Source of the DNA: Gammaproteobacteria bacterium
GTDB lineage: Bacteria > Pseudomonadota > Gammaproteobacteria > Ga0077536
Assembly: GCA_024235015.1 (NCBI GenBank)
Contig: JACKNG010000001.1
Coordinates: forward strand, 77,934-141,933
Direction: 5' to 3'
Length of the DNA stretch: 64,000 bases
The notes under the pieces were generated by a model. The model worked only from the letters and a program-made list of their open reading frames with translations. It was not told the DNA's origin and did no database searches. The position numbers and the translations under genes are program-made. Every line of letters starts with the position of its first letter. Positions within the stretch are counted from its first letter, which is position 1. Positions 6,515 through 64,000 of this stretch are shown here, in pieces.

Positions 6515-7405
6515 TCAGCGCGCGGCGCCGAGCTTGTCGAGTTGCGCAGCCAGGGCGACGATGCGTTCCGCCTGCACCAGGTGCGGGCGGTCGATCATCT
6601 TGCCGTCGAGCTGCAGGGTACCGGCATCGGGATTGCTGGCGAAGGCTTCGATCACGGCGCGTGCGTGGGCGAGCTCCTCGGCCGAGGGCGAGAACGCGGC
6701 GTTGATGACCTCGACCTGGGCCGGGTGGATGGCGATCTTGCCGGTGAAGCCATCGCGCCGTGCCTCGTCGCACACCACCTTAAGACGATCGGTGTCGCGG
6801 AAATCGGCCATCACGGTGTCGATGGCCTGCACGCCGGCGGCGTGGGCGCCGAACAGGCACAGCGAGCGCACCAGCTGGTAGGGGCTGGTCCATTCCTTGT
6901 CCGGGCGCAGGTTGGTGCTGGCACCGACCGCGGCGCCGAGATCCTCCGCGCCCCAGGTCATGCCGGCCAGGCGCGGGGTGTCGAAACGGTAGTCGCCGAG
7001 GGTGAACACCGCGGCGGCGGTCTCGGTCGCCACCGGCAGCAGGGCGATGGCCCCGGCCGGCAGGGCGTGTTCGGCCTCGAGCACGTCGATGTAGTGCGAG
7101 ACCGTGCGGAGATCTTCCGGGCCGTTGGCCTTGGGCACGACGATGCCATCGGGTGCGGCCGGCACCACGGCGGCGATGTCGTGCAGGGTGAGGCCCGAGT
7201 CGAGCGGGTTGACGCGCACGTAGAAGCGGACACCGGCTGCGCGCTCGCCGCGCAGGAAGTCAGCGACCATGCCGCGCGCGGTCGGCTTGCGCGTCGCGGC
7301 GACCGAATCCTCGAGGTCGAGGATCACGCAGTCGGCGCCGATCCCCGACGCCTTGGTCATCTTCTTGTCGCTGTCGCCCGGGGCGAAGAGGAGTGAGCGC
7401 AACAT
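6515..7405 (-). CDS. CitE-like acyl-CoA lyase (HpcH/HpaI aldolase family; citryl-/citramalyl-/malyl-CoA lyase beta-subunit type)
   Basis: Real start [19 protein letters not shown]... is at the ATG at 7405 (296 aa); the 105-aa upstream extension in the track is Arg-rich junk. CitE family hallmarks are present. It overlaps the upstream MaoC stop by 1 nt (ATGA). Confidence 0.8.
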   Translation of the reverse strand: MLRSLLFAPGDSDKKMTKASGIGADCVILDLEDSVAATRKPTARGMVADFLRGERAAGVRFYVRVNPLDSGLTLHDIAAVVPAAPDGIVVPKANGPEDLRTVSHYIDVLEAEHALPAGAIALLPVATETAAAVFTLGDYRFDTPRLAGMTWGAEDLGAAVGASTNLRPDKEWTSPYQLVRSLCLFGAHAAGVQAIDTVMADFRDTDRLKVVCDEARRDGFTGKIAIHPAQVEVINAAFSPSAEELAHARAVIEAFASNPDAGTLQLDGKMIDRPHLVQAERIVALAAQLDKLGAAR

Positions 7406-7860
7406 CAGGTCGGCTTCCTCAGCATCAGTCCCGAGCGCTTGCACACGGCGACCAGCTCGTCCTTCTGGTTGTAGGCGCGGTGCTCGAAGATGACGATGCC
7501 GTTCTGCGGCCGCGACTTGCTCTCGCGCAGCTCCATCACCTCCGACTCGACGCGGATGGTGTCGCCGTGGAACAACGGGCGCGGAAAGCGCACCTCGTCC
7601 CAGCCGAGGTTGGCGACGGTGGTGCCGAGGGTGGTCTCGTGCACGCTGATGCCGACCATCAGCGCCAGGGTGAAGCCCGAGTTGACGATACGCTGGCCGA
7701 ACTCGGTCTCGTTCCTGCAATACTCCTCGTCGAGGTGCAGCCGCGCCGGGTTGTGCGTCATCGCCGTGAACAGGACGTTGTCGGTCTCGGTCAGGGTGCG
7801 GCGGATCGGGTGATGGAAAATCTGCCCGACGCTGAATTCTTCGAAGTAAAGGCCTGCCAT
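7405..7860 (-). CDS. MaoC-like (R)-specific enoyl-CoA hydratase/dehydratase
   Basis: 151 aa from [15 protein letters not shown]..., a single hotdog MaoC dehydratase domain, with a GGAGG RBS upstream of the ATG at 7860. Confidence 0.8.
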
Positions 7861-7911
7861 GTTTCCTCCCGTGTGCGCTGCTGGCCGTGAAAGCGAGGCG
7901 GCATTATAGGG

Positions 7912-7964
7912 AAATCGGGGACAGACCACGGTTTCCGCCGGAAACCGTGGTCTGTCCCCGATTT
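7912..7964. repeat. Perfect ~26-bp-arm palindrome AAATCGGGGACAGACCACGGTTTCCG-c-CGGAAACCGTGGTCTGTCCCCGATTT (REP-like, GGGGACAG-headed)
   Basis: Read directly from the sequence in the 147-bp gap between the acyl-CoA synthetase stop and the MaoC start; a near-perfect hairpin with a 1-nt centre. Coordinates ±2. Confidence 0.7.
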
Positions 7965-8007: not shown

Positions 8008-9522
8008 TCAAGCGCCGAACAACGTCGCGTAGCGCTCGCGCAACAGGTTCTTCTGTACCTTGCCCATGGTGTTGCGCGGCAGTTCGTCGAGCACCAGCAC
8101 GCGCTTGGGCACCTTGAACGTGGCCAGCTGGCCGCGCAGGCAGGCAATCACGGCCTGCTCGTCGACCGTCGTCGTGGTCACGACCGCCGCGACCACGGCT
8201 TCGCCGAAATCGGCATGCGGGACGCCGAACACGGCCGCTTCGCCGATGCCGTCGAGGGCTTCGAGTTCGCGTTCGATCTCCTTCGGATAGACGTTGAGCC
8301 CGCCCGAGATGACCATGTCCTTGCTGCGCCCGACGATGAACAGGTAGCCGTCGGCATCGAGGTAGCCCTGGTCGCCGGTGTCGAACCAACCGCCGGCGTC
8401 GAAGGCCTTGGCAGTCGCCTCGGGCAGCCGCCAGTAGCCGGGGAAGACGTTCGGCCCGCGGACCTCGATGTCGCCGATGTCGCCACTCGCGCAGACCTGC
8501 CGTTGAGCGTCGACCACGCGCACTTCCACCCCCGCCAGCGGCGGGCCGACCGAGGCCGGCTTGCGCTCCCCGAGCAGCGGGTTGGAGGTGTTGATGCCGG
8601 TCTCGGTCATGCCGTAACGCTCGAGGATGACGTGCCCGGTGCGTTCGACGAATTCGTGGAAGGTGGCCTCGGACAATGGCGCCGAGCCGGAGATGAACAG
8701 GCGCATGGAAGCGCAGTCGGCGGCACCGAAGCCGGGCAGCGCGAGCAGCCGGGTGTAATAGGTCGGCACCCCGGCCATCAGGGTGGCGCCGGCCAGCGTG
8801 TCTCGCACGGCCGCGGCGTCGAAACGCGGCAGGAAGCGCAGGGTCAGGCCGGCCAGCAGGGCCGGCCCGAGGGTGATGAACAGGCCGTGAACGTGGAACA
8901 CCGGCAGGGCGTGGACGAGCACGTCGTCAGCGTGGAAGCCCCAGGCTTCGCGCAGCGCGCAGGCATTGGCGTAGAGGTTGCCGTGGGTGATGCGGATGCC
9001 CTTGGGCGTGCCGGTGGTGCCCGAGGAATAGAGCAGCGCGGCATCGTCGTCGGCGGCGCGGCTGACGGTGGCGAAGGCCTCGGCGGCAGCGCTGCAGGCG
9101 GCGGCGAAGCCGCCCGCCCCGGCCGCGTCCATGTCGAGCCGCTGCGCGCTGCTGCCGGCCGCGTCGCAGGCGGCCGCCACCCGCGCGGCCAGGGCCGGGT
9201 CGCAGATCACCAGGCGCGAGCCGGCATCGCCGATGAAGAAGGCCAGTTCACGCTCGGTGTAGCCGGTATTGAGCGGATGGAAGACCAGCCCTGCACGCAG
9301 GCAGCCGAGGTAGAGCCAGAGGTAGCGCGGCGACTTCTCGGCGACGACCGACACGCGGTCCCCGGGGGCGAGGCCGAGGGCGCCGAGGGCATTGGCCGCG
9401 CGCGCCGTCTCGCGTTCGGCATCGGCGTAGCTGACCCGGCTGCCGTCCGGCAGTTCGAGCAGGGTGCGGGCGGGGTCGAAGGCGGCGGTGAAGCGCGCGT
9501 AGAGATTGGCGTTGGTCGTCAT
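8008..9522 (-). CDS. AMP-dependent acyl-CoA synthetase/ligase (MatB/long-chain-fatty-acid-CoA ligase-like)
   Basis: 504 aa with the AMP-binding motif YSSGTTGTPKG, TGD, and a C-terminal GKVQK lysine motif. Confidence 0.85.
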   Translation of the reverse strand: MTTNANLYARFTAAFDPARTLLELPDGSRVSYADAERETARAANALGALGLAPGDRVSVVAEKSPRYLWLYLGCLRAGLVFHPLNTGYTERELAFFIGDAGSRLVICDPALAARVAAACDAAGSSAQRLDMDAAGAGGFAAACSAAAEAFATVSRAADDDAALLYSSGTTGTPKGIRITHGNLYANACALREAWGFHADDVLVHALPVFHVHGLFITLGPALLAGLTLRFLPRFDAAAVRDTLAGATLMAGVPTYYTRLLALPGFGAADCASMRLFISGSAPLSEATFHEFVERTGHVILERYGMTETGINTSNPLLGERKPASVGPPLAGVEVRVVDAQRQVCASGDIGDIEVRGPNVFPGYWRLPEATAKAFDAGGWFDTGDQGYLDADGYLFIVGRSKDMVISGGLNVYPKEIERELEALDGIGEAAVFGVPHADFGEAVVAAVVTTTTVDEQAVIACLRGQLATFKVPKRVLVLDELPRNTMGKVQKNLLRERYATLFGA

Positions 9523-18055: not shown

Positions 18056-18082
18056 GGCGCTGCTCGGCTGGGGTGCGGGAAC

Positions 18083-18107
18083 GGGGACAGTTAGGAAAAC
18101 TGTCCCC
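18083..18107. repeat. Palindrome GGGGACAGTT-aggaa-AACTGTCCCC (REP-like, GGGGACAG family) in the convergent intergenic region
   Basis: 10-bp perfect arms with a 5-nt loop, 28 bp after the cytochrome c stop. Confidence 0.65.
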
Positions 18108-18163: not shown

Positions 18164-18188
18164 GGGGAAGGTTTTCCTAACCGTCCCC
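18164..18188. repeat. Second, near-inverted copy GGGGAAGGTT-ttcct-AACCGTCCCC of the same palindromic repeat
   Basis: It is the reverse complement of the 18083 copy with 3 mismatches, the loop being the exact reverse complement. The two hairpins sit 56 bp apart between the convergent cytochrome c and MBL genes and likely act as a bidirectional terminator. Confidence 0.6.
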
Positions 18189-18238
18189 CTCTCCGGCAAC
18201 CGGAAGCAATCGAAGCCCCCGACCCGCTCCAATCTATC

Positions 18239-29761: not shown

Positions 29762-30334
29762 ATGAGCGAGGAATTCAGCGTCAGCCGCGATCTCATCCGC
29801 CAGCTCGTCGAGGGCACCATCGACGACGACAACACCGAGCGGCTGCTCAAGCTGCCGCGCAAGGACAAGGATCGCTTCCTCAACTACATCGCCGTGCTGC
29901 AGGAACGTGTGCCGTGGGACGATCGCATCCTGCTGCGCCTGGGCGACAAGCTCTACGTGGTGTCGAAAGGCGCCGGGCGGCGCGAGACCCAGTGCGAGTG
30001 CGGTCACAGCTTCGGCGACTACCGTGAGAACTGGAAGCTGAAGTGCCGCATCCGCGTGCGTGACACCTTGGAGCGTATGGCCGAGGTCTACGATCCCGCC
30101 CCGGCCGTGCCCGAGGCGGGCTGGCAGGAAATCCGCGAATTCTTCTGCCCCGGCTGCGCCACCCAGCACGCGGTCGAAGTGGTCGCGCCGGGTTACCCGG
30201 TGGTATTCGAACTGCTGCCGGATCTCGATCGCTTCTACCGCGATTACCTCGGCCAACCGCTCGCGGACGAAGCCGGGGACTGGTACGAGGACCGCTCGGC
30301 GCAGGTGACGGCGCACTGGAAACAAGCCGGCTGA
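29762..30334 (+). CDS. Acetone carboxylase gamma-subunit-like protein (AcxC-like Zn-ribbon subunit)
   Basis: 190 aa with IAVLQERVPWDD, CECGHSF..NWKL..RVRD, and IREFFCPGC, matching AcxC blocks; starts 4 nt after the alpha-like stop. Confidence 0.8.
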   Translation: MSEEFSVSRDLIRQLVEGTIDDDNTERLLKLPRKDKDRFLNYIAVLQERVPWDDRILLRLGDKLYVVSKGAGRRETQCECGHSFGDYRENWKLKCRIRVRDTLERMAEVYDPAPAVPEAGWQEIREFFCPGCATQHAVEVVAPGYPVVFELLPDLDRFYRDYLGQPLADEAGDWYEDRSAQVTAHWKQAG

Positions 30335-30384
30335 GTACGCGGCGCGGTCGGGACGCCGGCCTAACAAACCGGGACGGAGCTAAG

Positions 30385-30450
30385 GGGGACAGTATACTTT
30401 CGCACGCGCTGTGGGCCGGCCCGTGCGCCGGGCGAAAGTATACTGTCCCC
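30385..30450. repeat. Long hairpin GGGGACAGTATACTTTCGC-N28-GCGAAAGTATACTGTCCCC (GGGGACAG palindrome family) between the acxC-like and acxA-like genes
   Basis: 19-bp perfect arms with an internal AT-rich GTATAC core; the spacer is itself partly palindromic (CGCACG...CGTGCG, GGGCCGGCCC). Confidence 0.7.
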
Positions 30451-30541
30451 ATTCCCGCTACCCGTCCCCGCCCGACGCACAGACGACGACGCGCTGCCGC
30501 ACCTGCGGTGGCGAGCAGAATTTCTTCGAGGGGAGACATCC

Positions 30542-32728
30542 ATGAGCACGAGCTCCGAGCACGTCGGCGCCGAGCGCGACCTGATCCTGGCGCTCGACGC
30601 CGGCGGCACCATGACCGACGCCATCCTGGTCAAGCCCGATGGCACCTTCACCGTCGGCAAGTCGATCAGCCGGCGTGAAGACCAGGCGTTGAGCTACTAC
30701 GAGTCGGTCGCCGACGCCGCGCAGATGATCGGTCTCGATGCCGAGACCGTGCACCGCCGCTGTGCCGCGGACATCTACTGCGGCACCGGCATGCTGAACA
30801 GCGTGCTGACCGGCGACGGGCGCAAGGTCGGGCTGGTCGTCACGCGCGGCTTCGAGGACATCACCGTCATGGAAGGCGGTCTCACCTACCTCGGCCAGAG
30901 CCAGGCCGAGGGCCTGCACCAGCAATTGCACCGCCACACCCGGCAGCTGGTCGATCCGCGCAACGTGGTCAGCGTCAGCGAGCGCATGGGCGGCGGATGC
31001 TACCAGGGCAACATCCACCTGCCGGCCGGGCACACGCTCATCCCGGTCAACGAGCGCCAGGTGCGCGAGGGCGTCAACAAGCTGCTCGACCAGGGCTGCG
31101 AGGTCATCGGCATCCTCTTCATCTACTCCTTCGTCGATCCGCGCCACGAGCACCAGGCGCGCGACATCGCGCGGCAGGAGATCGCGAAACGCGGGGTCGA
31201 GGTGCCAGTGGTGTGTTCGGCCGACGTCGCGCCGGTGGCGAAGGAGAACAACCGCCTGAAGAGCCTGCTCTTCCAATGCTTCGCTGCCGAACAGGTGCGC
31301 GAATCCCTGCTCGACGTCGAGCGGCGCGCGCGCGGTCTCGGCTTCAGCGGCCGCCTGCTGACCCTGTTGTCCTACGGCGGCGCGGTGAACATGGAATACC
31401 CGCGCCTCTACGAGACCATGATCTCGGGGCCCATCGGCGGCCTCATCGGCGCCCAGTTCGTCGCCAGCCAGCTCGGCCTCGACAACGTCGTCACCGCCGA
31501 CATGGGCGGCACCAGCTTCGATGTCGGCCTGCTCGTCGACGGCCGCATGGGCATCGCGCGCAGCGCCGACATCGCCGGCCACCGTCTCGCCCTGCCCATG
31601 GTCGAACTCGACTCGGTCGGCAGCGGCGCGGGCTCGGTGGTGTGGGTCGACGAGTACAAGCGCCTGCACGTCGGGCCGGACTCGGCCGGCGCCCGGGTCG
31701 GCATCTGCCACGAGTTCGATCGCCTCACCGTCACCGACATCAACGTCGCGCTCGGCTACGTCGACCCCGACTACTTCCTCGGCGGCCATATCAAGCTCGA
31801 TCGCGAACGTGCCCTGGCCGCGCTCAAGGAAGCCGTCGCCGACCCGCTCGGCCTCGACGTCTACGAGGCCGGTGCCGGCGTGCTCGCCATCGTCAACGCC
31901 GAGATGAACGACCTGCTGCGTACCATGGTCGCGGCCAAGGGTTACGACACGCGCGACTTCACCCTGCTCTACTACGGCGGCGCCGGCCCGGTGCACATGT
32001 ACGGTTTCGCCGAGGGTATTCCCTTCAAGGACGTCATCACCCTGCCGTGGGCGGCCGGCTTCTCGGCCTTCGGCGCGGCCTGCGCCGAGTACATGCATCG
32101 CTACGACCGCGGCCTGCGCGTGCTGGTGCCGGCCAGGGCCGATACAGCCGAACTCGCGGCGACGGCGACCGAGGTCGATCGCGCCTGGCGCGAACTCGAA
32201 GCGGAAGCCCGCGCCGAGATGGCGGCCGAAGGCATTGACCCGGACAAGGTGCGCTTCCGCTACGGCGTCGCCATGCGCTACATCGGCCAGATCGAGAGTT
32301 TCGATACCGCCCTCGCCAGTGGCGACATGCGCGGCCCCGAGGACATCCGCGCCATGGTCGAGGCCTTCGAGACGATGTACTCCAAGGTCTATCCCGAGGG
32401 CGCCAAGTTCAGCGGCGCCGGCTACTCGCTGACCGAGGTCAGCATCGAGGCGATCGCGCCCAAGCCGCAGCCGCGCCTGGCGCGCCATGCGCTGGCCGGC
32501 AGTGAACCCGCCGCCCAGGCACGGGTCGGTACGCGCGAGGTCTACCACCAGGATGCCTGGGTGACGTTCGCCGTCTACGAGATGAAGGAGCTCACCGCCG
32601 GCAATGTCGTGCACGGGCCGGCCATCATCCGCGATCCCATGACGACGGTGGTCGTCCCGCCCGGCCACGAGATGGCCTTCGACGAACACCTGATCCTGCA
32701 CTACCGCGCCAGCGCGGCCACGCACTGA
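30542..32728 (+). CDS. Acetone carboxylase beta-subunit-like protein (hydantoinase A/oxoprolinase family)
   Basis: 728 aa, collinear with AcxA (LALDAGGTMTD, ISGPIGGLIGA, DMGGTSFDV, ELDSVGSGAGS...). Confidence 0.85.
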   Translation: MSTSSEHVGAERDLILALDAGGTMTDAILVKPDGTFTVGKSISRREDQALSYYESVADAAQMIGLDAETVHRRCAADIYCGTGMLNSVLTGDGRKVGLVVTRGFEDITVMEGGLTYLGQSQAEGLHQQLHRHTRQLVDPRNVVSVSERMGGGCYQGNIHLPAGHTLIPVNERQVREGVNKLLDQGCEVIGILFIYSFVDPRHEHQARDIARQEIAKRGVEVPVVCSADVAPVAKENNRLKSLLFQCFAAEQVRESLLDVERRARGLGFSGRLLTLLSYGGAVNMEYPRLYETMISGPIGGLIGAQFVASQLGLDNVVTADMGGTSFDVGLLVDGRMGIARSADIAGHRLALPMVELDSVGSGAGSVVWVDEYKRLHVGPDSAGARVGICHEFDRLTVTDINVALGYVDPDYFLGGHIKLDRERALAALKEAVADPLGLDVYEAGAGVLAIVNAEMNDLLRTMVAAKGYDTRDFTLLYYGGAGPVHMYGFAEGIPFKDVITLPWAAGFSAFGAACAEYMHRYDRGLRVLVPARADTAELAATATEVDRAWRELEAEARAEMAAEGIDPDKVRFRYGVAMRYIGQIESFDTALASGDMRGPEDIRAMVEAFETMYSKVYPEGAKFSGAGYSLTEVSIEAIAPKPQPRLARHALAGSEPAAQARVGTREVYHQDAWVTFAVYEMKELTAGNVVHGPAIIRDPMTTVVVPPGHEMAFDEHLILHYRASAATH

Positions 32729-46828: not shown

Positions 46829-47314
46829 TCAGGCTGTTACGCGGGTGAGGACGAAGATCGGGATCTCGCGCGTCGTCTTGGCCTGGTAGGCACGGTACGG
46901 CGGGTAGAGGTTGGCCATCATCTCCCACAGGCGCGTGCGCTCGGCACCGGTGGCCAGGCTGGCCTCCGCCGCGAAGACCTCGGCGCCCACCTGCAGCTCG
47001 ACCCGCGGCTGCGCGCGCAGGTTGAAATACCACGCCGGGTGGGTGTCGGCGCCACCCTTGGAGCCGACGATGACGTAGCGCTCACCGTCCTCGCCGTACA
47101 GCAGCGGGTGGGTCACGACCTGGCCCGAGCGCCGCCCGACCGTGGTCAACAGCAGGCAGGGCAAGGGGCCGTCGCCGCCGAAGGCGGTGGCGTCCCACAG
47201 GTGGCCGCGCGCGCCGCCGCTCTCGCGGTATTCGCGCAGGTGTTGCTGGATCCAGTCCGGTACCGCGCCCTGGGCCAGGGTGGCGACGGCGTCGTCGGCG
47301 GGGTCGTTGCTCAT
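46829..47314 (-). CDS. Deazaflavin(F420)-dependent nitroreductase-family oxidoreductase (DUF385/PNPOx-like)
   Basis: 161 aa with the DUF385 hallmark HPAWYFNLRAQPRVELQVG and split-barrel fold motifs. Confidence 0.75.
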   Translation of the reverse strand: MSNDPADDAVATLAQGAVPDWIQQHLREYRESGGARGHLWDATAFGGDGPLPCLLLTTVGRRSGQVVTHPLLYGEDGERYVIVGSKGGADTHPAWYFNLRAQPRVELQVGAEVFAAEASLATGAERTRLWEMMANLYPPYRAYQAKTTREIPIFVLTRVTA

Positions 47315-47377: not shown

Positions 47378-48418
47378 TCAGGCGTGGTGGCGGGCGGCCT
47401 CGGCGATCACTTCCACCGCCTCGTCCTGCTGGGTGCGCACGGCCAGGGTCGTCGCGCCCGAATCGGTCCAGGCGCGGAAACGCTCGATGATGCGCGCCTT
47501 CGGACCGACCAGGCTCTTGTGGTCCACCCATTCGTCGGGCACGGCCGCCGCCGCCTCGTCCTTGCGACCGGCGAGAAAGAGTTCCTGGATGCGCTCGGCG
47601 GCCGCGCCGTAGCCGCGCCGGGTCATGAGATCCTTGTGGTAGTTCTTGCCCCGTGCGCCCATGCCGCCCACGTAGAGCGCGACCTCGGGCTTCAGCGCGG
47701 CGAGCGCTGCGCCGACGTCGTCGGCGACCTGCACGTGGCAGTTGGCGACGATGTCGAATCCGGCCAGCGACTTGCCGCCGCCGGCGCGACGGAAGCCCTC
47801 CTCCAGCCACGGCCGGTACTCGGGCAGCGAACCCGGCACGAAGCCGAGCGGCAGCCAGCCGTCGGCGATCTCGGCGGTCAGGCGAACGGAGGCGGCGTTG
47901 CCGGTGCCGAGGTAGATGGGAATGGCCGGGTTCATGTGCAGGATGGACTTGAGCGGCTTGGCCAGGCCGGCCGCGCCGGGGCCCTGGTAAGGCAGGGAGA
48001 TCTCCTCGCCGGCATGCGTCACCGGCGCTTCGCGCGCCCAGATCTTGCGGATGATGGCGACGTAGTCCCGGAGCCGGTAATACGGCCGTCCCCACGGCTC
48101 GCCGTACCAGCCCTCGACGATCTGCGGCCCGGACACGCCGATGCCGAGCAGCATGCGGCCGCCGCCGCCCATGGCGTCGATGGTGCCCGCGGTCATCGCC
48201 GCGTTGGCGGCGGTCCGTGCGGCGAGTTGGATGACCCCGGAACCGAGCTTGATGCGTTGGGTGACGGCGGCGAGGTAGGCCAGCGGCGAGAGCGCGTCCG
48301 AGCCATAGGCCTCGGCCGTCCACACCGAGTCGTAACCGAGCGCTTCGGCGCGCTGGACGCGGGCGACCGGTAGCGCCATGCGGGCGCCGGAATAACCGAT
48401 GGCGAGGGCGAGTTTCAT
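47378..48418 (-). CDS. LLM-class F420-dependent-type oxidoreductase (paralogue of 19142..20182)
   Basis: 346 aa from MKLALAIGYSGARMALP..., collinear with the 19142 gene ([41 protein letters not shown]). Confidence 0.8.
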   Translation of the reverse strand: MKLALAIGYSGARMALPVARVQRAEALGYDSVWTAEAYGSDALSPLAYLAAVTQRIKLGSGVIQLAARTAANAAMTAGTIDAMGGGGRMLLGIGVSGPQIVEGWYGEPWGRPYYRLRDYVAIIRKIWAREAPVTHAGEEISLPYQGPGAAGLAKPLKSILHMNPAIPIYLGTGNAASVRLTAEIADGWLPLGFVPGSLPEYRPWLEEGFRRAGGGKSLAGFDIVANCHVQVADDVGAALAALKPEVALYVGGMGARGKNYHKDLMTRRGYGAAAERIQELFLAGRKDEAAAAVPDEWVDHKSLVGPKARIIERFRAWTDSGATTLAVRTQQDEAVEVIAEAARHHA

Positions 48419-48667
48419 GCTGCGCTTCCGGGACTGGCGATGCCGGCAGGATAACGGAGGTTCGGCGGAGTCGTAAGGCCGGTGGCGGCCGGCGCCCGGT
48501 GGTTTCAGACACCGCCGGGCAGGCCGTCGATCCCGGGGCGATGGCGCGGGCGATGGTGTCTGACACCGCCAGGCATGTGCTTGATTTCGTGCCGGGCGGG
48601 CCCGTTAACGCGAAGCGTGCGCCATCCGGGCTATGCTTGGCACCGCTTGCCGACACGAGACCTGGCC

Positions 48668-49969
48668 ATGGGGCTGAGCCTGGATACCCTCGACATCCAT
48701 CACCCGGACGACTATGCCGCGCACGGTTTCCCCTGGGCCGCGTGGGACTTGTTGCGGCGCGAAGCGCCGGTGTTCTACTACGAGCGCGACGACATCGAGC
48801 CGTTCTGGGCGGTGACCCGTTACGACGACGTCATGACGGTGTCCAACCACCCTGACGTCTTCATCAACGGCGGGCCGCGTCTGCGCCTGGCGCTCAAGGG
48901 GCAGCCCGAGATCGCCCGCGCCGGGCTCGATCGCTTCGGCGCGGCACGCGGCTGGGACCCGGACGAGCCACCGGACCTGGTGTTCATGGACAATCCGCGC
49001 CACCGGCGCATGCGTCGCCTGGCCAGCTGGGCCTTCACCCAGGGCGCGATGCGGCGCATGCAGCAGCATTTCCAGGCCCTGGCCGAGGACTTCACCCGCG
49101 ATTTCATGGCCGATCTCAAAGCCGCCGCGGCGCGTGGCGAGAGTCGCGATCTCGTCCAGGGCCTCGCGGCCAAGCTGCCGCTCGCCGCCATCGGCGAGAT
49201 CCTCGGCCTGCCGCCGGGCGACTGGCAGCGCGTGCTGGTGTGGTCGAACGCCCTGCTCGGCGAGTTCGCGCCGGGCTACCGCCACCCGGGCGAGAGCCGC
49301 GGCGCGGCCGGCTATCGCAGCATGGACGAGTTCCGCGGTTACCTCGAAGCCCTGGTGCAGGAAAGCCGTGCCGCGGGCGCCGCACGCGGCGGCTTCATCG
49401 ATCACCTGGTGCACACCCCGGTCCACGGTGCCCTGCTCAGCGACCAGCAGCTCATCGGTTACCTCTTCCTGCTCGTCGCTGCCGGCAACGACACCACGCG
49501 CAACGCCTTCAGCGGCGGCGTGGCCGCGCTCCTGGAGCATCCCGAACAGCTGGCCCGGCTGCAGGCCGAGCCGGCCCTGCTGCCGGACGCCGTGGAGGAA
49601 ATCCTGCGCTGGACGTCGCCGGTCGGCAGCTTCCTGCGTACGGTGACGCGTGATTTCGTCCTCAATGGCGTGACCCTGCGCGAAGCCGATACCGTCGGCG
49701 TGTTCTATCCCTCCGCCAACCGCGACGAGCGTGTGTTCGCCAATCCCTACCGCTTCGACATCACGCGTCGGCCCAACCCACACCTGACCTTCGGTTTCGG
49801 CGCCCATTTCTGCCTCGGCACCAACCTCGCGCGGGCCGAGTTGGCGGCGAGCCTGGCGGCCCTGCTACCCCACCTGCATCGCCTGGAACGGGCCGGGCCG
49901 GGCGAACGCATGGCGCAGACCCACGTGCTCGGCTACTCCCACTTGCCAATGCGGCTGCGCGCGGGCTGA
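48668..49969 (+). CDS. Cytochrome P450
   Basis: 433 aa from MGLSLDTLDIHHPDDY... with the FGFGAHFCLG haem-thiolate loop, EEILRW (EXXR) and AGNDTT I-helix. Confidence 0.9.
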   Translation: MGLSLDTLDIHHPDDYAAHGFPWAAWDLLRREAPVFYYERDDIEPFWAVTRYDDVMTVSNHPDVFINGGPRLRLALKGQPEIARAGLDRFGAARGWDPDEPPDLVFMDNPRHRRMRRLASWAFTQGAMRRMQQHFQALAEDFTRDFMADLKAAAARGESRDLVQGLAAKLPLAAIGEILGLPPGDWQRVLVWSNALLGEFAPGYRHPGESRGAAGYRSMDEFRGYLEALVQESRAAGAARGGFIDHLVHTPVHGALLSDQQLIGYLFLLVAAGNDTTRNAFSGGVAALLEHPEQLARLQAEPALLPDAVEEILRWTSPVGSFLRTVTRDFVLNGVTLREADTVGVFYPSANRDERVFANPYRFDITRRPNPHLTFGFGAHFCLGTNLARAELAASLAALLPHLHRLERAGPGERMAQTHVLGYSHLPMRLRAG

Positions 49970-60985: not shown

Positions 60986-61766
60986 GGTGTCAGGTTTATT
61001 TTTCGTTCAAGCCCCGGCCGGTTCCCGGCCTGCCGGGACCGAGCGCGCTCATCCGCCTTCCCAGTTTCTCCTCGATCGCCATCCGGAACCGCCTGCCGCC
61101 GGTCAACTGGTTTCGCCTAACCGCGGTGCGCACGGCCTCGTCCGTCTCGGGGCATGCCGCCGTTCTGACGAAAGCCACGTAGTTCGATAGGTCGTCGTCC
61201 GTCCCATGGGCGAGAGGTAACAGCGGCAGGGCATGCACGTCTGCCTTCGTCATTCCTGAGCGGACACTGAAACTCGACCACGGATAATCTTCCGGGGCCG
61301 CCACCATGCCGGCGCGCACCGGGTTCATTTCGATATAACGGCAGCAGGCCCAGAGATAGTCGTCGCGATCCACGAGAGAGCACTTGAAACGACCTTCCCA
61401 AAGGGTGCCGCTACGACGTTCGAGGCGATTCACGTAACGCGTTTGCCGCGCGGCTACCACGCGCATGAGTTCGGAGAGTGCATCGGGCTCGTCGTGCGGT
61501 TCGAGCAGCAGGTGGACATGGTTTGTCATCAGGCACCAGGCGTACAACCCGACTCCCCGCACCTGCATCTGTTCTATGAGGTTGTCGACGTAGTACGCAT
61601 AGTCCGCGTCGGCAGCGAAAACCGGTTTACGGTCATGCCCTCGGTGGACGACGTGATGCGGGAAGCCGGTGAGAAAGGCGCGTGGGTATCTCGGCATCTT
61701 GGAACCTCCTTGTTCCTTGATGAGTCATGGTGCCGGGTGGCTTAGTGGGAAAATAAACCTGACACC
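60986..61766. mobile_element. REP-associated tyrosine transposase (RAYT) unit bounded by perfect 17-bp inverted repeats GGTGTCAGGTTTATTTT / AAAATAAACCTGACACC
   Basis: Left inverted repeat at 60986..61002 and right at 61750..61766, read directly from the sequence; they flank the Y1-transposase gene. Coordinates ±1. Confidence 0.7.
60996..61697 (-). CDS. REP-associated tyrosine transposase (IS200/IS605 TnpA-like Y1 transposase, RAYT class)
   Basis: 233 aa from MPRYPRAFLTGFPHHVVHRGHDRKPVF..LMTNHVHLLLEP (HuH motif), with the catalytic Tyr region YPWSS typical of RAYTs. Confidence 0.8.
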   Translation of the reverse strand: MPRYPRAFLTGFPHHVVHRGHDRKPVFAADADYAYYVDNLIEQMQVRGVGLYAWCLMTNHVHLLLEPHDEPDALSELMRVVAARQTRYVNRLERRSGTLWEGRFKCSLVDRDDYLWACCRYIEMNPVRAGMVAAPEDYPWSSFSVRSGMTKADVHALPLLPLAHGTDDDLSNYVAFVRTAACPETDEAVRTAVRRNQLTGGRRFRMAIEEKLGRRMSALGPGRPGTGRGLNEK

Positions 61767-61787
61767 TTTTCTCTTGAGGCCTCAGAT

Positions 61788-62234
61788 TCACGCGACGATA
61801 CCGGTGTCGAATTCCTCGAAAACACCGTTATTGCAGCGTAGGCAAGTCCGCCCGACCATATTCTTAACGGAGAAAATGGCGGAAGCGCTGCACTTCGGGC
61901 ATTTCAATTCGTCGCGATTCAGGTCTAGGCCTGTCATATTCCCGCAAGCTTCACAGAAGCAGTCTGAAAGGAACCCGGTTCGCTTATCAAACGCCTCTTT
62001 TATTCGCGCTCGACGCGCCTTTCGATCCGAGGACCACCACCATTTTTGACCTGCGTTGAGATCGGCGAGTTCTTCTTTAGAGAATCCAAGCACTTGCGCG
62101 ACGTATTCTAATTCGCCGGGATGCGGGCAAATCTGTCGTTCCCCCAAACTCGTTGCCACATAGAACATCCCGCCCCAACCGGACGCGAGCCGCAACGCGC
62201 AGTTAGCGCACCGAATTTCGCGGATTCTCGGCAT
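61788..62234 (-). CDS. Hypothetical Cys-rich (multi-CxxC, Zn-ribbon-like) protein in the low-GC islet
   Basis: 148 aa with CANC...CPHP, CFCEAC, CPKC and CLRC; ~50% GC; a hairpin TGAGGCCTCA sits right after the stop. Confidence 0.5.
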   Translation of the reverse strand: MPRIREIRCANCALRLASGWGGMFYVATSLGERQICPHPGELEYVAQVLGFSKEELADLNAGQKWWWSSDRKARRARIKEAFDKRTGFLSDCFCEACGNMTGLDLNRDELKCPKCSASAIFSVKNMVGRTCLRCNNGVFEEFDTGIVA

Positions 62235-62239
62235 GCCGA

Positions 62240-62704
62240 TTAGGTGTTTCGTCTGTACGGGATATTGAAGACTCTCGCCAGTCCCACGTGCTCTACGGGC
62301 CGCGACTCTTGACGTTCTGATTGGCGTTGAAGCTCGTTCTTGTTTATAGCGTCCTCGATGCCGAATTTGAACATATCAATCGTGACTTGCTCAAAGAGGT
62401 CGCCCATATCGGAACTCTCTTCTCGGATACCTCGGAGCTGACTTACTACGGCGGGCAGATGCTTAACAGCGGACACTACGTGGGGCATGTGCCGACTATA
62501 GGTCTCGACGAGGGCGCCTTGGGATCTCGCCGGAAAAATGTCCTTTAGGTCAGTTAGACCACCGAAATCCTGCTGGGCTGACTTGATTGCGAAGTAATAA
62601 ATGTTGGCAATGGTGTTGACCAATTCTTCCGACAGGTCGGACGTATCGCCGAATCCGTCTCGGATAGCGGCGCGGACGCTCTCTTTGAACTTCGTTGCCG
62701 TCAT
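62240..62704 (-). CDS. Hypothetical protein in the low-GC islet
   Basis: 154 aa from MTATKFKESVRAAIRDGFGDTSDLSEELV...; AGGTGG RBS; stops 5 nt before the next gene start. Confidence 0.5.
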   Translation of the reverse strand: MTATKFKESVRAAIRDGFGDTSDLSEELVNTIANIYYFAIKSAQQDFGGLTDLKDIFPARSQGALVETYSRHMPHVVSAVKHLPAVVSQLRGIREESSDMGDLFEQVTIDMFKFGIEDAINKNELQRQSERQESRPVEHVGLARVFNIPYRRNT

Positions 62705-62722
62705 CGACGTACCACCTGAGGC

Positions 62723-62791
62723 CTAACGCCACAATGAGCCGCACTTGACGGCGACGACTGGAGCGGCAGCGAAAGGAGGAGCGGTCAAGTG
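62723..62791. repeat. Conserved upstream element, copy 1: CTAACGCC...GC(A)CTTGACGGCGAC...GGAGCGGCAGCG...GGAGCGGTCAAG
   Basis: ~70 bp homologous to 63561..63631. Contains the inverted pair CTTGAC...GTCAAG ~40 bp apart and sits ~45 bp upstream of the 62704 start codon. Confidence 0.6.
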
Positions 62792-62824
62792 TCGGCCTCG
62801 ATTGTGATGTTAGAAGGAGCTTTC

Positions 62825-63547
62825 TTACTTATCCACTGGAGGCCGCACCCGATCTAGGTATCGTGAAAGCGTTGGATTCACAACGACCTTCCCAGGTTCT
62901 TCGGAGCTTACTGATATTTGCAGGATGCCTTGTACTAGCGAATTGACTGACTTGAATGCGGCCAAAGCATCGTTCTGGATTTCGTCGATGTTCTCATCCC
63001 ATAAGTGGAAGTACTTCCTCCGCGTAGTGCGGAGATAAGTAAACGCTTCAACGTGATCTTCTGGAACGCGTTTTGTCACGGCAAGTATTCTGATCCGATG
63101 CTCTTGGCCGAGCTTTTCGAACGTGCGGCCGAAGAAAGCCCTCTCGACCTCTTCAGAGCGCTCTTCGGGGTTCTTCGAAAGAGGCTCCATCTCCCAGACA
63201 AGTTGGGCGAGCATTTCCGCGACATGTGCACAAAGCTCAATTGCGGCCAAAAACTCGCCTAAGCAATAGCACCGCTTCGCGGACTTAAAGGGAGCCAATA
63301 GCCGTTCGAATAGTTTCTCGGTATGTGGGAGAAACGGCAGGTATAGCTCCGGTGTGCTTAGTTCTGCATACCGTTCAAGCACTTCGATGGATAGAGCGGT
63401 TAAAGGCAATTCGAAGAACGACTCTGCCAACGCGTACTCATGAGACCTGCCGGGATCAATCTCCCCAGTGTGAACACGGCGAGGAAAATCGCTCCTGACC
63501 GGGACTCCCATGAAATTGAGCGTTACTTGGACCGTTCCATTGGCCAC
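62825..63547 (-). CDS. Hypothetical protein in the low-GC islet (GTG start)
   Basis: 240 aa; a GTG start follows a GAAGGAG RBS; no recognisable domain. Confidence 0.5.
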   Translation of the reverse strand: MANGTVQVTLNFMGVPVRSDFPRRVHTGEIDPGRSHEYALAESFFELPLTALSIEVLERYAELSTPELYLPFLPHTEKLFERLLAPFKSAKRCYCLGEFLAAIELCAHVAEMLAQLVWEMEPLSKNPEERSEEVERAFFGRTFEKLGQEHRIRILAVTKRVPEDHVEAFTYLRTTRRKYFHLWDENIDEIQNDALAAFKSVNSLVQGILQISVSSEEPGKVVVNPTLSRYLDRVRPPVDK

Positions 63548-63560
63548 GGATTAGCTCCTT

Positions 63561-63631
63561 CTAACGCCGCGTTAACCTGCGCTTGACGGCGACTGACCGG
63601 AGCGGCAGCGCAGGGAAGGAGCGGTCAAGCG
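63561..63631. repeat. Conserved upstream element, copy 2 (same element as 62723..62791)
   Basis: gcgCTTGACGGCGACtgaCCGGAGCGGCAGCGcagGGAaGGAGCGGTCAAGcg, at an equivalent distance upstream of the 63547 start. Confidence 0.6.
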
Positions 63632-63661
63632 TCAGGTTCAACGTTTTGTTGGGCGGCGTGT

Positions 63662-64000
63662 TCATTGATCTCGAATCTGCGAGGCCCTAATTTTCGACTC
63701 CAGATGCGGCTTCAATCTCTTTATCGTTTCCGACAGAGCGCCAATAAACCACGACGCAGCGAATGGAGAAATATAGATCTCGTCTATGAGCAGATTAACG
63801 TTTGTTCTAACGTGGCGTCCTTGGGACACATCGTAGGGTGGCGTGTAGCCAGGGTTCGAATTGGGGTTATGTAGGATAAAGAGCCTTAGCTCGTTTTCGT
63901 ATCTATAGAATTCCCGCTTGGTTGTGACCAACCGGTGCCGGCTGAGATCCGTTTCCGGAAGATAATCTCGATACTGAACTTCTCCGGCAAATATCGTTTC
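63662..64000 (-). CDS. Hypothetical protein in the low-GC islet, partial (open to the window edge)
   Basis: The track lists 63662..63931 (TTG start), but the frame stays open through 64000 (...ETIFAGEVQYRDYLPETDLSRHRLVTTKREFYRYENELRLFILHNPN...), so the gene probably starts beyond the window. Confidence 0.4.
   Translation of the reverse strand, partial: ETIFAGEVQYRDYLPETDLSRHRLVTTKREFYRYENELRLFILHNPNSNPGYTPPYDVSQGRHVRTNVNLLIDEIYISPFAASWFIGALSETIKRLKPHLESKIRASQIRDQ

What the first reader, a model, noticed from the sequence alone, without database searches (positions are those of the whole stretch)
7912..7964. Family of GGGGACAG...CTGTCCCC-headed intergenic palindromes with variable cores (4 copies)
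Hairpins at 7912-7964 (26-bp perfect arms), 18083-18107 and 18164-18188 (a mutually inverted pair between convergent genes), and 30385-30450 (19-bp arms around an AT-rich GTATAC core) all begin with GGGGACAG and end with CTGTCCCC, but their internal sequences differ. This conserved-cap, variable-core architecture is not that of a simple rho-independent terminator (no U-tracts). It resembles REP/BIME-like elements or protein-recognised hairpins; two copies lie inside operons (ligase-MaoC, acxC-acxA) where they could act as processing, stability or attenuation elements.
Basis: seen in the sequence. Interest (0 to 1): 0.55.

Follow-up and report, generated by a model that had tools for sequence, protein, structure and literature searches.

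The report
Transposase-linked GGGGACAG-capped palindromic repeats
The GGGGACAG…CTGTCCCC hairpins are real, and they are short repeats of a published kind: the inverted-repeat ends that flank a widespread family of tyrosine transposase genes (TIRYT / group-1 RAYT), here present without the gene, so this is a new example of a known but little-studied element.

Summary
Three exact GGGGACAG…CTGTCCCC palindromes (7917-7959, 18083-18107, 30385-30450) and one degenerate inverted copy (18164-18188) are the strongest inverted repeats in the window. All are intergenic, and about 0.0015 such pairs are expected by chance.

The cap matches GGGGWSAS, the published signature of the terminal inverted repeats (TIRs) flanking TIRYT genes (group-1 RAYT, TnpA-Y1 subclass 2.1). 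The window encodes one such gene (60996-61697, minus strand). Among 80 metagenomic homologues, the cap lies upstream in 65 of 76 and, inverted, downstream in 60 of 78 usable flanks.

Copy 1 is a head-to-head dimer of a 26-nt TIR. It is 25/27 identical to TIRs flanking distant homologues (about 40% protein identity). The other copies share the cap plus a one-sided tail.

The copies are present with compensatory arm changes in one close relative and absent from the same sites in the next relatives.

The resident gene's own TIR (GGTGTCAGGTTTATTTT) is a different subtype, so the mobilising enzyme is unidentified.

Verdict: a new member of a known kind, of modest interest.

The parts
7912..7964 (.). 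Copy 1 (family A). A head-to-head dimer of a 26-nt ACCACG-type TIR (GAAATC-GGGGACAG-ACCACGGTTTCC), with 1 nt between the arms.
   Evidence: Perfect 26-nt arms. Each arm is 25/27 identical to the TIRs flanking TIRYT genes in L187, L194 and L199. As RNA it folds at -51.5 kcal/mol, z = -9.4. The same element sits at the same site in L206 and is absent from L208 and L209; L207, L210 and L212, whose spacer carries an extra ORF, contain no capped palindrome.
18076..18107 (-). Copy 2 (family B unit, read on the minus strand). Hairpin GGGGACAGTT-AGGAA-AACTGTCCCC at 18083-18107, plus the one-sided tail GTTCCCGC (18076-18082 and beyond).
   Evidence: I3. The tail is shared with copies 3 and 4 (alignment A2). 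Conserved in L206/L217 and absent from L208 and L218.
18164..18200 (+). Copy 3 (family B unit, inverted relative to copy 2). Degenerate hairpin GGGGAAGGTTTTCCTAACCGTCCCC at 18164-18188, plus tail.
   Evidence: In L206/L217 the orthologous unit is a perfect hairpin, GGGGACGG…CCGTCCCC, which is a compensatory A>G / T>C change relative to copy 2. There it is also duplicated in tandem.
30385..30466 (+). Copy 4 (family B unit with a long core). Arms of 19 nt around a 28-nt GC-rich core (hairpin 30385-30450), followed by the tail ATTCCCGCTACCC.
   Evidence: (I1). RNA fold -64.8 kcal/mol, z = -8.0. Present in L217 with a compensatory change in both arms (TTTCGC/GCGAAA becomes TTTTGC/GCAAAA). Absent from L218, L219 and L220.
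60996..61697 (-). TIRYT / group-1 RAYT gene (233 aa). It has a Y1 HUH core (NHVH, WE, YIEMNP) and a conserved C-terminal extension.
   Evidence: Pfam Y1_Tnp 1.2e-09. NCBIfam NF047646 REP_Tyr_transpos, 85.8 bits against an 80-bit cut-off. Alignment A1. Weak match to E. coli TnpA-REP 4ER8. It is the only such gene in the window.
60986..61002 (.). Downstream TIR of the resident TIRYT, GGTGTCAGGTTTATTTT. It overlaps the stop codon.
   Evidence: The same TIR flanks the 72-74% identical homologues in L213, L214 and L215, which sit in different gene neighbourhoods.
61750..61766 (.). Upstream TIR of the resident TIRYT (AAAATAAACCTGACACC on the plus strand), a perfect 17-nt inverted repeat of 60986-61002.

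Best explanation
The palindromes are gene-less copies of the terminal inverted repeats that flank TIRYT genes. TIRYT is the same group as group-1 RAYT and TnpA-Y1 subclass 2.1: an HUH single-tyrosine transposase of the IS200 superfamily. These TIRs carry the published motif GGGGWSAS at their outer end, and GGGGACAG fits it exactly.

Copy 1 is two complete 26-nt TIRs joined head to head (a REPIN-like doublet). Copies 2, 3 and 4 are units of a second sub-family, built as cap, self-complementary core of variable length, inverted cap, then a one-sided tail.

Inferred mechanism, by analogy with E. coli TnpA-REP and IS608 TnpA. The elements fold into hairpins on single-stranded DNA. A cognate TIRYT recognises the cap and hairpin, then cuts and rejoins the strand, so that copies are deposited in, or lost from, intergenic DNA.

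The inner part of the TIR co-varies with the transposase clade. The cap is therefore the family-wide constant and the core is the subtype-specific or free part, which explains the 'conserved cap, variable core' picture.

Once inserted, the very stable hairpins (-50 to -65 kcal/mol as RNA) probably also act on transcripts, as 3'-exonuclease blocks, RNase III-type substrates or partial terminators.

What is shown: the family link, the anatomy, presence/absence among relatives, and compensatory arm evolution. What is inferred: catalysis by a TIRYT, which TIRYT is responsible, and any RNA-level effect.
For: 1. The window encodes a TIRYT-type protein. Its motifs (NHVH, WE, YIEMNP; 233 aa) fit subclass 2.1 in Table 1 of PMC6006769.
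2. In 80 metagenomic homologue loci, GGGGACAG (at most 1 mismatch) lies within 250 nt upstream in forward orientation in 65/76, and downstream in reverse orientation in 60/78. The wrong-orientation controls are 10 and 9.
3. The published TIR consensus is GGGGWSAS, also written GGGG[AT][CG]A[CG], and TIR families are reported to occur as singles, dimers and clusters.
4. The inner sequence of the TIR clusters with the protein clade. The copy 1 arm is 25/27 identical to the TIRs of clade-3 genes.
5. Contigs carrying clade-3 genes hold many gene-less head-to-head dimers of the same design. L175 has about 10 in 9.8 kb.
6. Copies 1-4 are present at identical sites in GCA_050184115.1. They are absent from the syntenic sites of the next relatives; for the copy 1 spacer the direct comparison is L208 and L209, while L207, L210 and L212, whose spacer carries an extra ORF, contain no capped palindrome.
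7. There are two independent compensatory double changes in the arms.
8. Copies 2, 3 and 4 share a tail beyond the cap.
9. A chance origin is excluded.
Against: - The resident TIRYT's own TIR is GGTGTCAGGTTTATTTT. It deviates from GGGGWSAS at position 3, and no other copy of it exists in the window.
- No clade-3 TIRYT gene is present in the window or in the relatives' syntenic loci.
- No TIRYT locus recovered here has a TTAGGAAAAC or TATACTTTCGC inner sequence, so family B has no identified cognate gene.
- Only 5 of 44 TIRYT loci of at least 4 kb have gene-less dimers nearby, so dispersal is not a universal property of the family.
- No biochemical activity of any TIRYT was found in the literature searched.
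- The whole source genome could not be scanned, so copy number and intergenic bias rest on 64 kb plus about 60 kb of one relative.
Confidence: 0.8

Rival explanations
1. Fossil copies. The palindromes came from a TIRYT system but are now immobile relics, because the cognate transposase for the ACCACG type and for family B is no longer in this genome. They would persist because the hairpins are useful as RNA or DNA structures, or because arm-to-arm correction keeps them symmetric.
For: The resident TIRYT has a different TIR subtype. There is no second TIRYT gene in the window or in syntenic relatives. All four copies sit at the same sites in the one close relative that has them, so no insertion newer than the split between the two genomes was seen. 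The arms change only by compensatory pairs.
Against: Most of the genome was not examined, so a cognate gene may lie elsewhere. The arms of copy 1 are still perfect over 26 nt, which suggests youth or active maintenance. L206/L217 has gained an extra tandem unit at the cytochrome c / MBL site, so some turnover continues.
Confidence: 0.3
2. Independent functional hairpins (terminators or mRNA stabilisers). On this view each arose in place, and the shared cap reflects selection for a good GC-rich stem foot rather than common descent.
For: Copy 1 passes a simple terminator scan on the plus strand. Many unrelated genomes have A-tract-GGGGACAG…CTGTCCCC-T-tract hairpins that look like bidirectional terminators. 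Copies 2 and 3 lie between convergent genes.
Against: Identity extends far beyond the cap: 25/27 to TIRs flanking transposase genes in other organisms, and a shared one-sided tail in copies 2-4. Copies 2-4 have no T-tract. For copy 1, the terminator-like tail is antisense to both flanking genes. Close relatives manage without any hairpin at the same sites. The chance expectation is 0.0015 pairs per window.
Confidence: 0.05
3. Operator sites. The capped palindromes would be binding sites for a DNA-binding regulator, for example the C-terminal helix-turn-helix-like domain of a domesticated TIRYT, controlling the adjacent catabolic operons.
For: Copy 1 abuts a conserved CCTATAATGCCGCC box upstream of the MaoC-type gene. 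Subclass 2.1 proteins carry an HTH-like C-terminal domain.
Against: The spacing between the two caps varies from 9 to 50 nt, which does not suit a dimeric operator. The sites are missing upstream of the same operons in relatives whose genes are 94-96% identical. Copies 2 and 3 lie between convergent 3' ends, where there is no promoter.
Confidence: 0.05

Closest known systems
TIRtrons and TIR repeat families of TIRYTs (Di Nocera et al. 2013, BMC Genomics 14:522, PMC3733652). Equivalent to TnpA-Y1 subclass 2.1 (Quentin et al. 2018, PMC6006769) and group-1 RAYTs (Bertels et al. 2017, PMC5581495).
   Same: A Y1 HUH protein of about 235 aa with NHVH / WE / YIExNP motifs and a conserved C-terminal extension. 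The gene is flanked by long TIRs, one of which overlaps the 3' end of the gene. The outer TIR motif is GGGGWSAS. There are moderately abundant gene-less TIR copies arranged as singles, dimers and clusters, and some TIRs are self-complementary.
   Different: The dispersed copies in this window belong to TIR subtypes other than that of the resident gene, and the resident TIR has T instead of G at cap position 3. Family B units have a one-sided tail and cores from 9 to 50 nt; I did not find this layout in the passages of those papers that I read. Quentin et al. list subclass 2.1 as having no REP.
REPINs and REP/BIME elements with their RAYTs (E. coli TnpA-REP, Pseudomonas group 2/3 RAYTs).
   Same: Short intergenic palindromes, often as inverted doublets that form one long hairpin. 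They are linked to a single-copy Y1 transposase gene flanked by the same repeats, are lineage-specific in presence, and have hairpin arms kept complementary.
   Different: There is no GT[AG]G guide tetranucleotide at the foot of the hairpin. The conserved element is an 8-nt GGGGWSAS cap. The protein belongs to a different subclass and has an extra C-terminal domain. Copy number appears lower: 3-4 per 64 kb here, and group-1 flanking 16-mers occur about 12 times per replicon according to PMC5581495.
IS200/IS605 insertion sequences (IS608, ISDra2).
   Same: An HUH single-tyrosine catalytic core and recognition of hairpin-forming ends on single-stranded DNA. This is the model for the inferred mechanism.
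   Different: IS200-type ends are subterminal, non-identical hairpins, and the gene moves with them at high copy number. Here the ends are true terminal inverted repeats, the gene is single-copy in the window, and the Y motif is Y---NP rather than Y---Q.

Membership tests
TIRYT / TIRtron system (TnpA-Y1 subclass 2.1, group-1 RAYT) | Y1 HUH protein with NHVH, W[EQ] and YIELNP-type motifs, median length about 238 aa, and a conserved C-terminal extension | tested here: met
   The 233-aa protein has NHVH, LWEGRF and YIEMNP, and a C-terminal region conserved across 20 homologues. Pfam Y1_Tnp. NCBIfam REP_Tyr_transpos 85.8 bits against 80. Motif table in PMC6006769.
TIRYT / TIRtron system (TnpA-Y1 subclass 2.1, group-1 RAYT) | Gene flanked by terminal inverted repeats carrying GGGGWSAS | tested here: inconclusive
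   The resident gene has a perfect 17-nt TIR, but its cap is GGTGTCAG, which matches GGGGWSAS at 7 of 8 positions. Homologues meet the feature in 65/76 upstream and 60/78 downstream flanks.
TIRYT / TIRtron system (TnpA-Y1 subclass 2.1, group-1 RAYT) | Dispersed gene-less repeats are copies of TIRs that flank such genes | tested here: met
   The copy 1 arm is 25/27 identical to the TIRs of L187, L194 and L199. GGGGACAG fits GGGGWSAS exactly. The same dimer design is abundant next to TIRYT genes in L175 and L178. For family B (copies 2-4), only the cap and the architecture match; no cognate gene was found.
TIRYT / TIRtron system (TnpA-Y1 subclass 2.1, group-1 RAYT) | Repeats are cut and rejoined, or mobilised, by the TIRYT | not testable with these tools
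   No experimental report was found. The only support is presence/absence among relatives.
Canonical REP/BIME (GTAG-tagged REP) | GT[AG]G tetranucleotide at the 5' foot of an imperfect palindrome of 20-40 nt | tested here: not met
   The flanks read AAATC, GGAAC, CTAAG, GATTT, ACCTT and ATTCC. No GTAG or GTGG sits at any foot.
REPIN (REP doublet forming a hairpin) | Two inverted copies of a repeat unit that fold into one long hairpin | tested here: met
   Copy 1 is two 26-nt units with a 1-nt spacer. Copies 2 and 3 are 32-nt units with a 56-nt spacer. Folds.
REPIN (REP doublet forming a hairpin) | Genome-wide over-representation in extragenic space | tested here: inconclusive
   Within the window there are 3 pairs against 0.0015 expected, and all are intergenic.
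Intrinsic (rho-independent) terminator | GC-rich stem-loop followed by a U-tract on the transcribed strand | tested here: not met
   Only copy 1 is flagged, and only on the plus strand, antisense to both neighbouring genes. Copies 2-4 are not flagged.
Known structured RNA families (Rfam 15) | Match to a covariance model at its gathering score | tested here: not met
   There are 0 matches in the whole window.

The most novel reading that the evidence does not exclude
The 8-nt GGGGWSAS cap plus hairpin geometry may be all that a TIRYT needs. If so, any TIRYT, including the resident one with its divergent GGTGTCAG ends, could mobilise capped palindromes with arbitrary cores. The largest and most widespread RAYT group, listed in the 2018 classification as having no REP, would then drive a pan-bacterial, cap-defined class of REPIN-like elements. 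These would be seen here from Gammaproteobacteria to Clostridia and Collinsella, and their cores would be free to evolve or to capture sequence.
Probability: 0.15. Interest if true: 0.55.

Novelty: new member of a known kind. Interest (0 to 1): 0.3.

Why it matters
It explains four otherwise puzzling hairpins and places an uncultured gammaproteobacterial lineage in the TIRYT/TIR system. That system was described in 2013 from 26 examples and has hardly been studied since.

The survey done here adds some support at larger scale:
- The cap flanks most of the 80 metagenomic homologues.
- The inner TIR sequence tracks the transposase clade.
- Some contigs carry about one gene-less dimer per kb. This sits awkwardly with the 'no REP' entry for subclass 2.1 in the 2018 classification.

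For annotation, it warns that very stable hairpins between co-directional catabolic genes can be selfish-element debris rather than dedicated regulatory sites. They may still affect mRNA processing.

Tried and rejected
It could not give genome-wide counts or locate the source genome. It did supply the first lead, recurrent GGGGACAGACCNCG hairpins.
2. BLAST of the copy 2/3 region and of copy 1 against PLSDB plasmids found nothing meaningful. The TIRYT protein is rare on plasmids, with 8 records.
3. Megablast of 25 kb against plasmids gave only housekeeping-level similarity of 70-77% to Proteobacteria.
4. A literature search by the sequence strings returned only irrelevant eukaryotic papers. A search for the assembly accession found nothing.
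5. I considered that each half of every palindrome is itself a small hairpin (X-GGGG-ACAGA-CCNC-X'). This holds loosely for the ACCACG type, but not for the ATTTATTT type or for family B, so I did not generalise it.
6. I considered that copy 4 inserted into an older GGGACGG…CCGTCCC hairpin (30371-30468). I rejected this because the outer left arm is not conserved in L217.
7. Tn3-type or other MITEs with target-site duplications were rejected: no direct repeats flank any copy.
8. DNA-uptake sequences, attC sites and CRISPR were rejected on density, motif and context.
9. Four small ORFs tested as candidate RAYTs turned out to be a SnoaL-like protein, a GNAT acetyltransferase, an F420H2-dependent quinone reductase, and one with no hit.
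10. A sigma-70 promoter formed by copy 1 plus the adjacent TATAAT was not supported: no acceptable -35 was found by the scan.

Full report
**Observation.**

Reading the sequence confirms three exact capped palindromes.
- Copy 1, 7912-7964: perfect 26-nt arms AAATCGGGGACAGACCACGGTTTCCG / CGGAAACCGTGGTCTGTCCCCGATTT, separated by one base.
- Copy 2, 18083-18107: GGGGACAGTT-AGGAA-AACTGTCCCC.
- Copy 4, 30385-30450: 19-nt arms GGGGACAGTATACTTTCGC / GCGAAAGTATACTGTCCCC around a 28-nt GC-rich core.

It is an inverted, slightly decayed copy of copy 2. The 32-nt arms 18076-18107 and 18164-18195 are 81% complementary.

These are the three longest inverted repeats in the 64-kb window. All six exact GGGGACAG 8-mers of the window lie in them. 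In 2000 Markov simulations, the expected number of capped inverted pairs within 70 nt was 0.0015 per window, against three observed.

All copies are intergenic, in DNA that is about 93% coding.
- Copy 1 lies between an AMP-dependent ligase (8008-9522) and a MaoC/MC-hydratase gene (7405-7861), both on the minus strand.
- Copies 2 and 3 lie between a convergent cytochrome c gene and a metallo-beta-lactamase-fold gene.
- Copy 4 lies between an acetone-carboxylase-gamma-like gene (29762-30334) and a hydantoinase-A-like gene (30542-32728), both on the plus strand.

NCBI labels the identical MaoC protein as coming from a 'MAG: Gammaproteobacteria bacterium'.

**First lead.**

It therefore gave no counts.

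The hits were still informative. About half had stems of 12 bp or more. A sub-type, GGGGACAGACC[ACT]CG, recurred in unrelated proteobacterial MAGs (L009, L039, L047, L088, L107, L119) with the same layout as copy 1. Multi-copy capped families also appeared in a Lachnospiraceae isolate (L043), a 29%-GC Clostridia MAG (L081) and in Collinsella.

**The transposase link.**

A look-up of the malonyl-CoA decarboxylase gene near the window's right end showed an adjacent Y1_Tnp gene. In the window this is 60996-61697 on the minus strand, encoding 233 aa.
- Pfam Y1_Tnp, 1.2e-09.
- NCBIfam NF047646 'REP-associated tyrosine transposase', 85.8 bits against a cut-off of 80.
- A weak match to E. coli TnpA-REP (4ER8) over the catalytic core.

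The gene is flanked by a perfect 17-nt inverted repeat, GGTGTCAGGTTTATTTT (60986-61002 and 61750-61766). The downstream copy overlaps the stop codon.

The protein has more than 7700 homologues. I aligned 20 of them (A1) and fetched 80 metagenomic loci.

In most of these loci the gene is bracketed by an inverted repeat whose outer part is (A)n-GGGGACAG. Counting GGGGACAG with at most one mismatch within 250 nt gives the following:
- forward orientation upstream: 65 of 76 usable flanks;
- reverse orientation downstream: 60 of 78;
- the wrong orientations: 10 and 9.

The cap is therefore the signature of this transposase family's terminal repeats.

**Subtypes.**

After the cap, the TIR continues in a way that depends on the protein clade.

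| Protein clade | TIR sequence | Identity to window protein |
|---|---|---|
| Largest clade | GGGGACAGAT[TC]TATTT | 43-52% |
| Window's own small clade (L213, L214, L215) | GGTGTCAGGTTTATTT | 72-74% |
| Clade 3 | RGGGACAGACCACGTTTT | about 40% |
| Others | GGGGCCAGGCTC, GGGGACGGAGG, and more | |

The homologues in the window's own clade sit in different gene neighbourhoods.

The clade-3 TIR, GAAATCAGGGACAGACCACGTTTTCC (L187, L190, L194, L199), is 25/27 identical to each arm of copy 1. Copy 1 is thus two complete clade-3-type TIRs joined head to head.

Contigs that carry clade-3 genes hold many gene-less dimers of the same design. L175 has about ten in 9.8 kb, and L178 has about five in 4.7 kb.

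Dispersal is not universal, however. Only 5 of 44 loci of at least 4 kb have gene-less dimers near the gene.

**Copies 2, 3 and 4.**

No TIRYT locus retrieved here has their inner sequences. They are nonetheless related to each other beyond the cap. Read in one orientation, all carry a similar tail (N-TTCCCG-S-N-AMCC) immediately after the inverted cap (alignment A2).

I treat them as a second sub-family, family B. Its units are cap, self-complementary core of 9 to 50 nt, inverted cap, then tail. It is comparable to the self-complementary TIRs reported in the literature. Copies 2 and 3 form a tail-out doublet, and copy 4 is a solo unit.

**Evolutionary behaviour.**

Synteny around the sites is conserved in several related MAGs.
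- The closest relative, GCA_050184115.1 (MaoC 98% identical; loci L206 and L217), has copies 1, 2, 3 and 4 at the same sites.
- The next relatives (MaoC 96% and 94%; L207-L212, L218) and GCA_041984765.1 (gamma subunit 83% identical; L219, L220) have no capped palindrome in about 106 kb of syntenic DNA.

Between the two carriers, the arms changed only by compensatory pairs.
- The copy 3 unit in L206 is GGGGACGG…CCGTCCCC, against GGGGACAG…CTGTCCCC in copy 2.
- Copy 4 has TTTCGC/GCGAAA in the window and TTTTGC/GCAAAA in L217.
- The 28-nt core of copy 4 took three unpaired changes.
- L206 has also gained a tandem duplicate of the copy 3 unit.

This pattern fits elements that were inserted in the common ancestor of the two carriers and whose hairpin is actively maintained. 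The maintenance could come from selection or from arm-to-arm correction.

**What the hairpins could do.**

As RNA on the transcribed strand they are extremely stable.
- Copy 1: -51.5 kcal/mol, z = -9.4.
- Copy 4: -64.8 kcal/mol, z = -8.0.
- The copy 2-3 region: about -71 kcal/mol.

Only copy 1 is terminator-like in a simple scan, and only on the strand antisense to its neighbours. No Rfam family matches anywhere in the window.

A 26-bp perfect duplex between co-directional genes is a plausible 3'-exonuclease block or double-strand-specific RNase substrate. That is inference from general knowledge of REP elements and was not tested here.

Copy 1 abuts a CCTATAATGCCGCC box that is conserved in relatives lacking the palindrome. 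This box may be the -10 element of an internal promoter, but no acceptable -35 is present.

**Comparison with what is known.**

- Di Nocera et al. 2013 (PMC3733652) described Y1 transposase genes flanked not by GTAG-tagged REPs but by long terminal inverted repeats. They named the proteins TIRYTs and the units TIRtrons. They reported that many TIRs share the motif GGGGWSAS, and that moderately abundant TIR families occur as singles, dimers or clusters in some genomes.
- Quentin et al. 2018 (PMC6006769) equate TIRYTs with TnpA-Y1 subclass 2.1. Its features are a median length of 238 aa, NHVH, W[EQ], YIELNP and an HTH-like C-terminal domain. They quote the consensus GGGG[AT][CG]A[CG] and list the subclass as having no REP.
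- Bertels et al. 2017 (PMC5581495) call the same proteins group-1 RAYTs. It is the largest and most widely distributed group, and its flanking 16-mers occur about 12 times per replicon.

The window's protein and palindromes fit this description. GGGGACAG is an exact instance of GGGGWSAS. They are not canonical REP/BIME elements, because no GT[AG]G foot is present.

Only these two papers in the searched library use the term TIRYT, and I found no biochemical study.

**Verdict.**

The kind of element is already published, so this is a new member of a known kind.

Open points:
- which transposase, if any, still moves these copies, given that the resident one has a different TIR subtype and no second gene lies in the window;
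- whether the cap alone is enough for recognition;
- whether the hairpins affect expression of the flanking catabolic genes.

Noticed in passing
window 61700-64000: GC content drops to 50-54% from a window mean of 69%, immediately beside the TIRYT gene. The three ORFs there (61788-62234, 62240-62704, 62825-63547, all minus strand) have no Pfam or NCBIfam match. This is probably a horizontally acquired segment.
   Followed up: partly
window 7896-7909 (minus strand CCTATAATGCCGCC): A TATAAT-containing box directly next to copy 1 is conserved upstream of the MaoC-type gene in all relatives, including those without the palindrome. It may be an internal promoter -10 element. No acceptable -35 was found by the scan.
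   Followed up: partly
L207 9170-9835 and L210 8820-9647 (the ligase / MaoC spacer in relatives): The same intergenic spacer that holds copy 1 in the window carries an extra opposite-strand ORF in two relatives (221 and 275 aa, no Pfam hit). Between the window and L206, the ligase-proximal flank of copy 1 cannot be aligned. The spacer looks like a hot spot for turnover.
   Followed up: no
L206 344-443 / L217 2949-3048: The copy 3-type unit is duplicated in tandem together with about 50 nt of flank (period about 75 nt) in the close relative GCA_050184115.1.
   Followed up: partly
L043, L081, and L007/L051/L076/L114/L122: GGGGACAG-capped palindromes occur as multi-copy families in a Lachnospiraceae isolate (4 in 8 kb), a 29%-GC Clostridia MAG (4 in 3 kb) and several Collinsella genomes. 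Capped repeat families therefore reach Firmicutes and Actinobacteria. Whether TIRYT genes accompany them was not checked.
   Followed up: no
window, whole: One-mismatch variants of GGGGACAG are under-represented: 38 observed against 71 ± 8 in shuffles. No explanation was sought.
   Followed up: no
window 48494-48574: An imperfect 36-nt inverted repeat containing the palindrome GGTGTCTGACACC lies at the junction of two divergent ORFs (47378-48604 minus, 48482-49969 plus). It may be an operator. L197 has a similar CAGGTGTCTGACACCTG next to its TIRYT homologue.
   Followed up: no
L219 127-4491: In relative GCA_041984765.1, the cytochrome c / MBL spacer (the site of copies 2 and 3 in the window) instead holds a nucleotidyltransferase/HepT pair and an MmeI-type restriction-modification gene.
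   Followed up: no
window 46829-47314: An F420H2-dependent quinone reductase family protein (PF04075, 1.3e-40) is encoded in what is labelled a gammaproteobacterial MAG. The family is best known from Actinobacteria.
   Followed up: no
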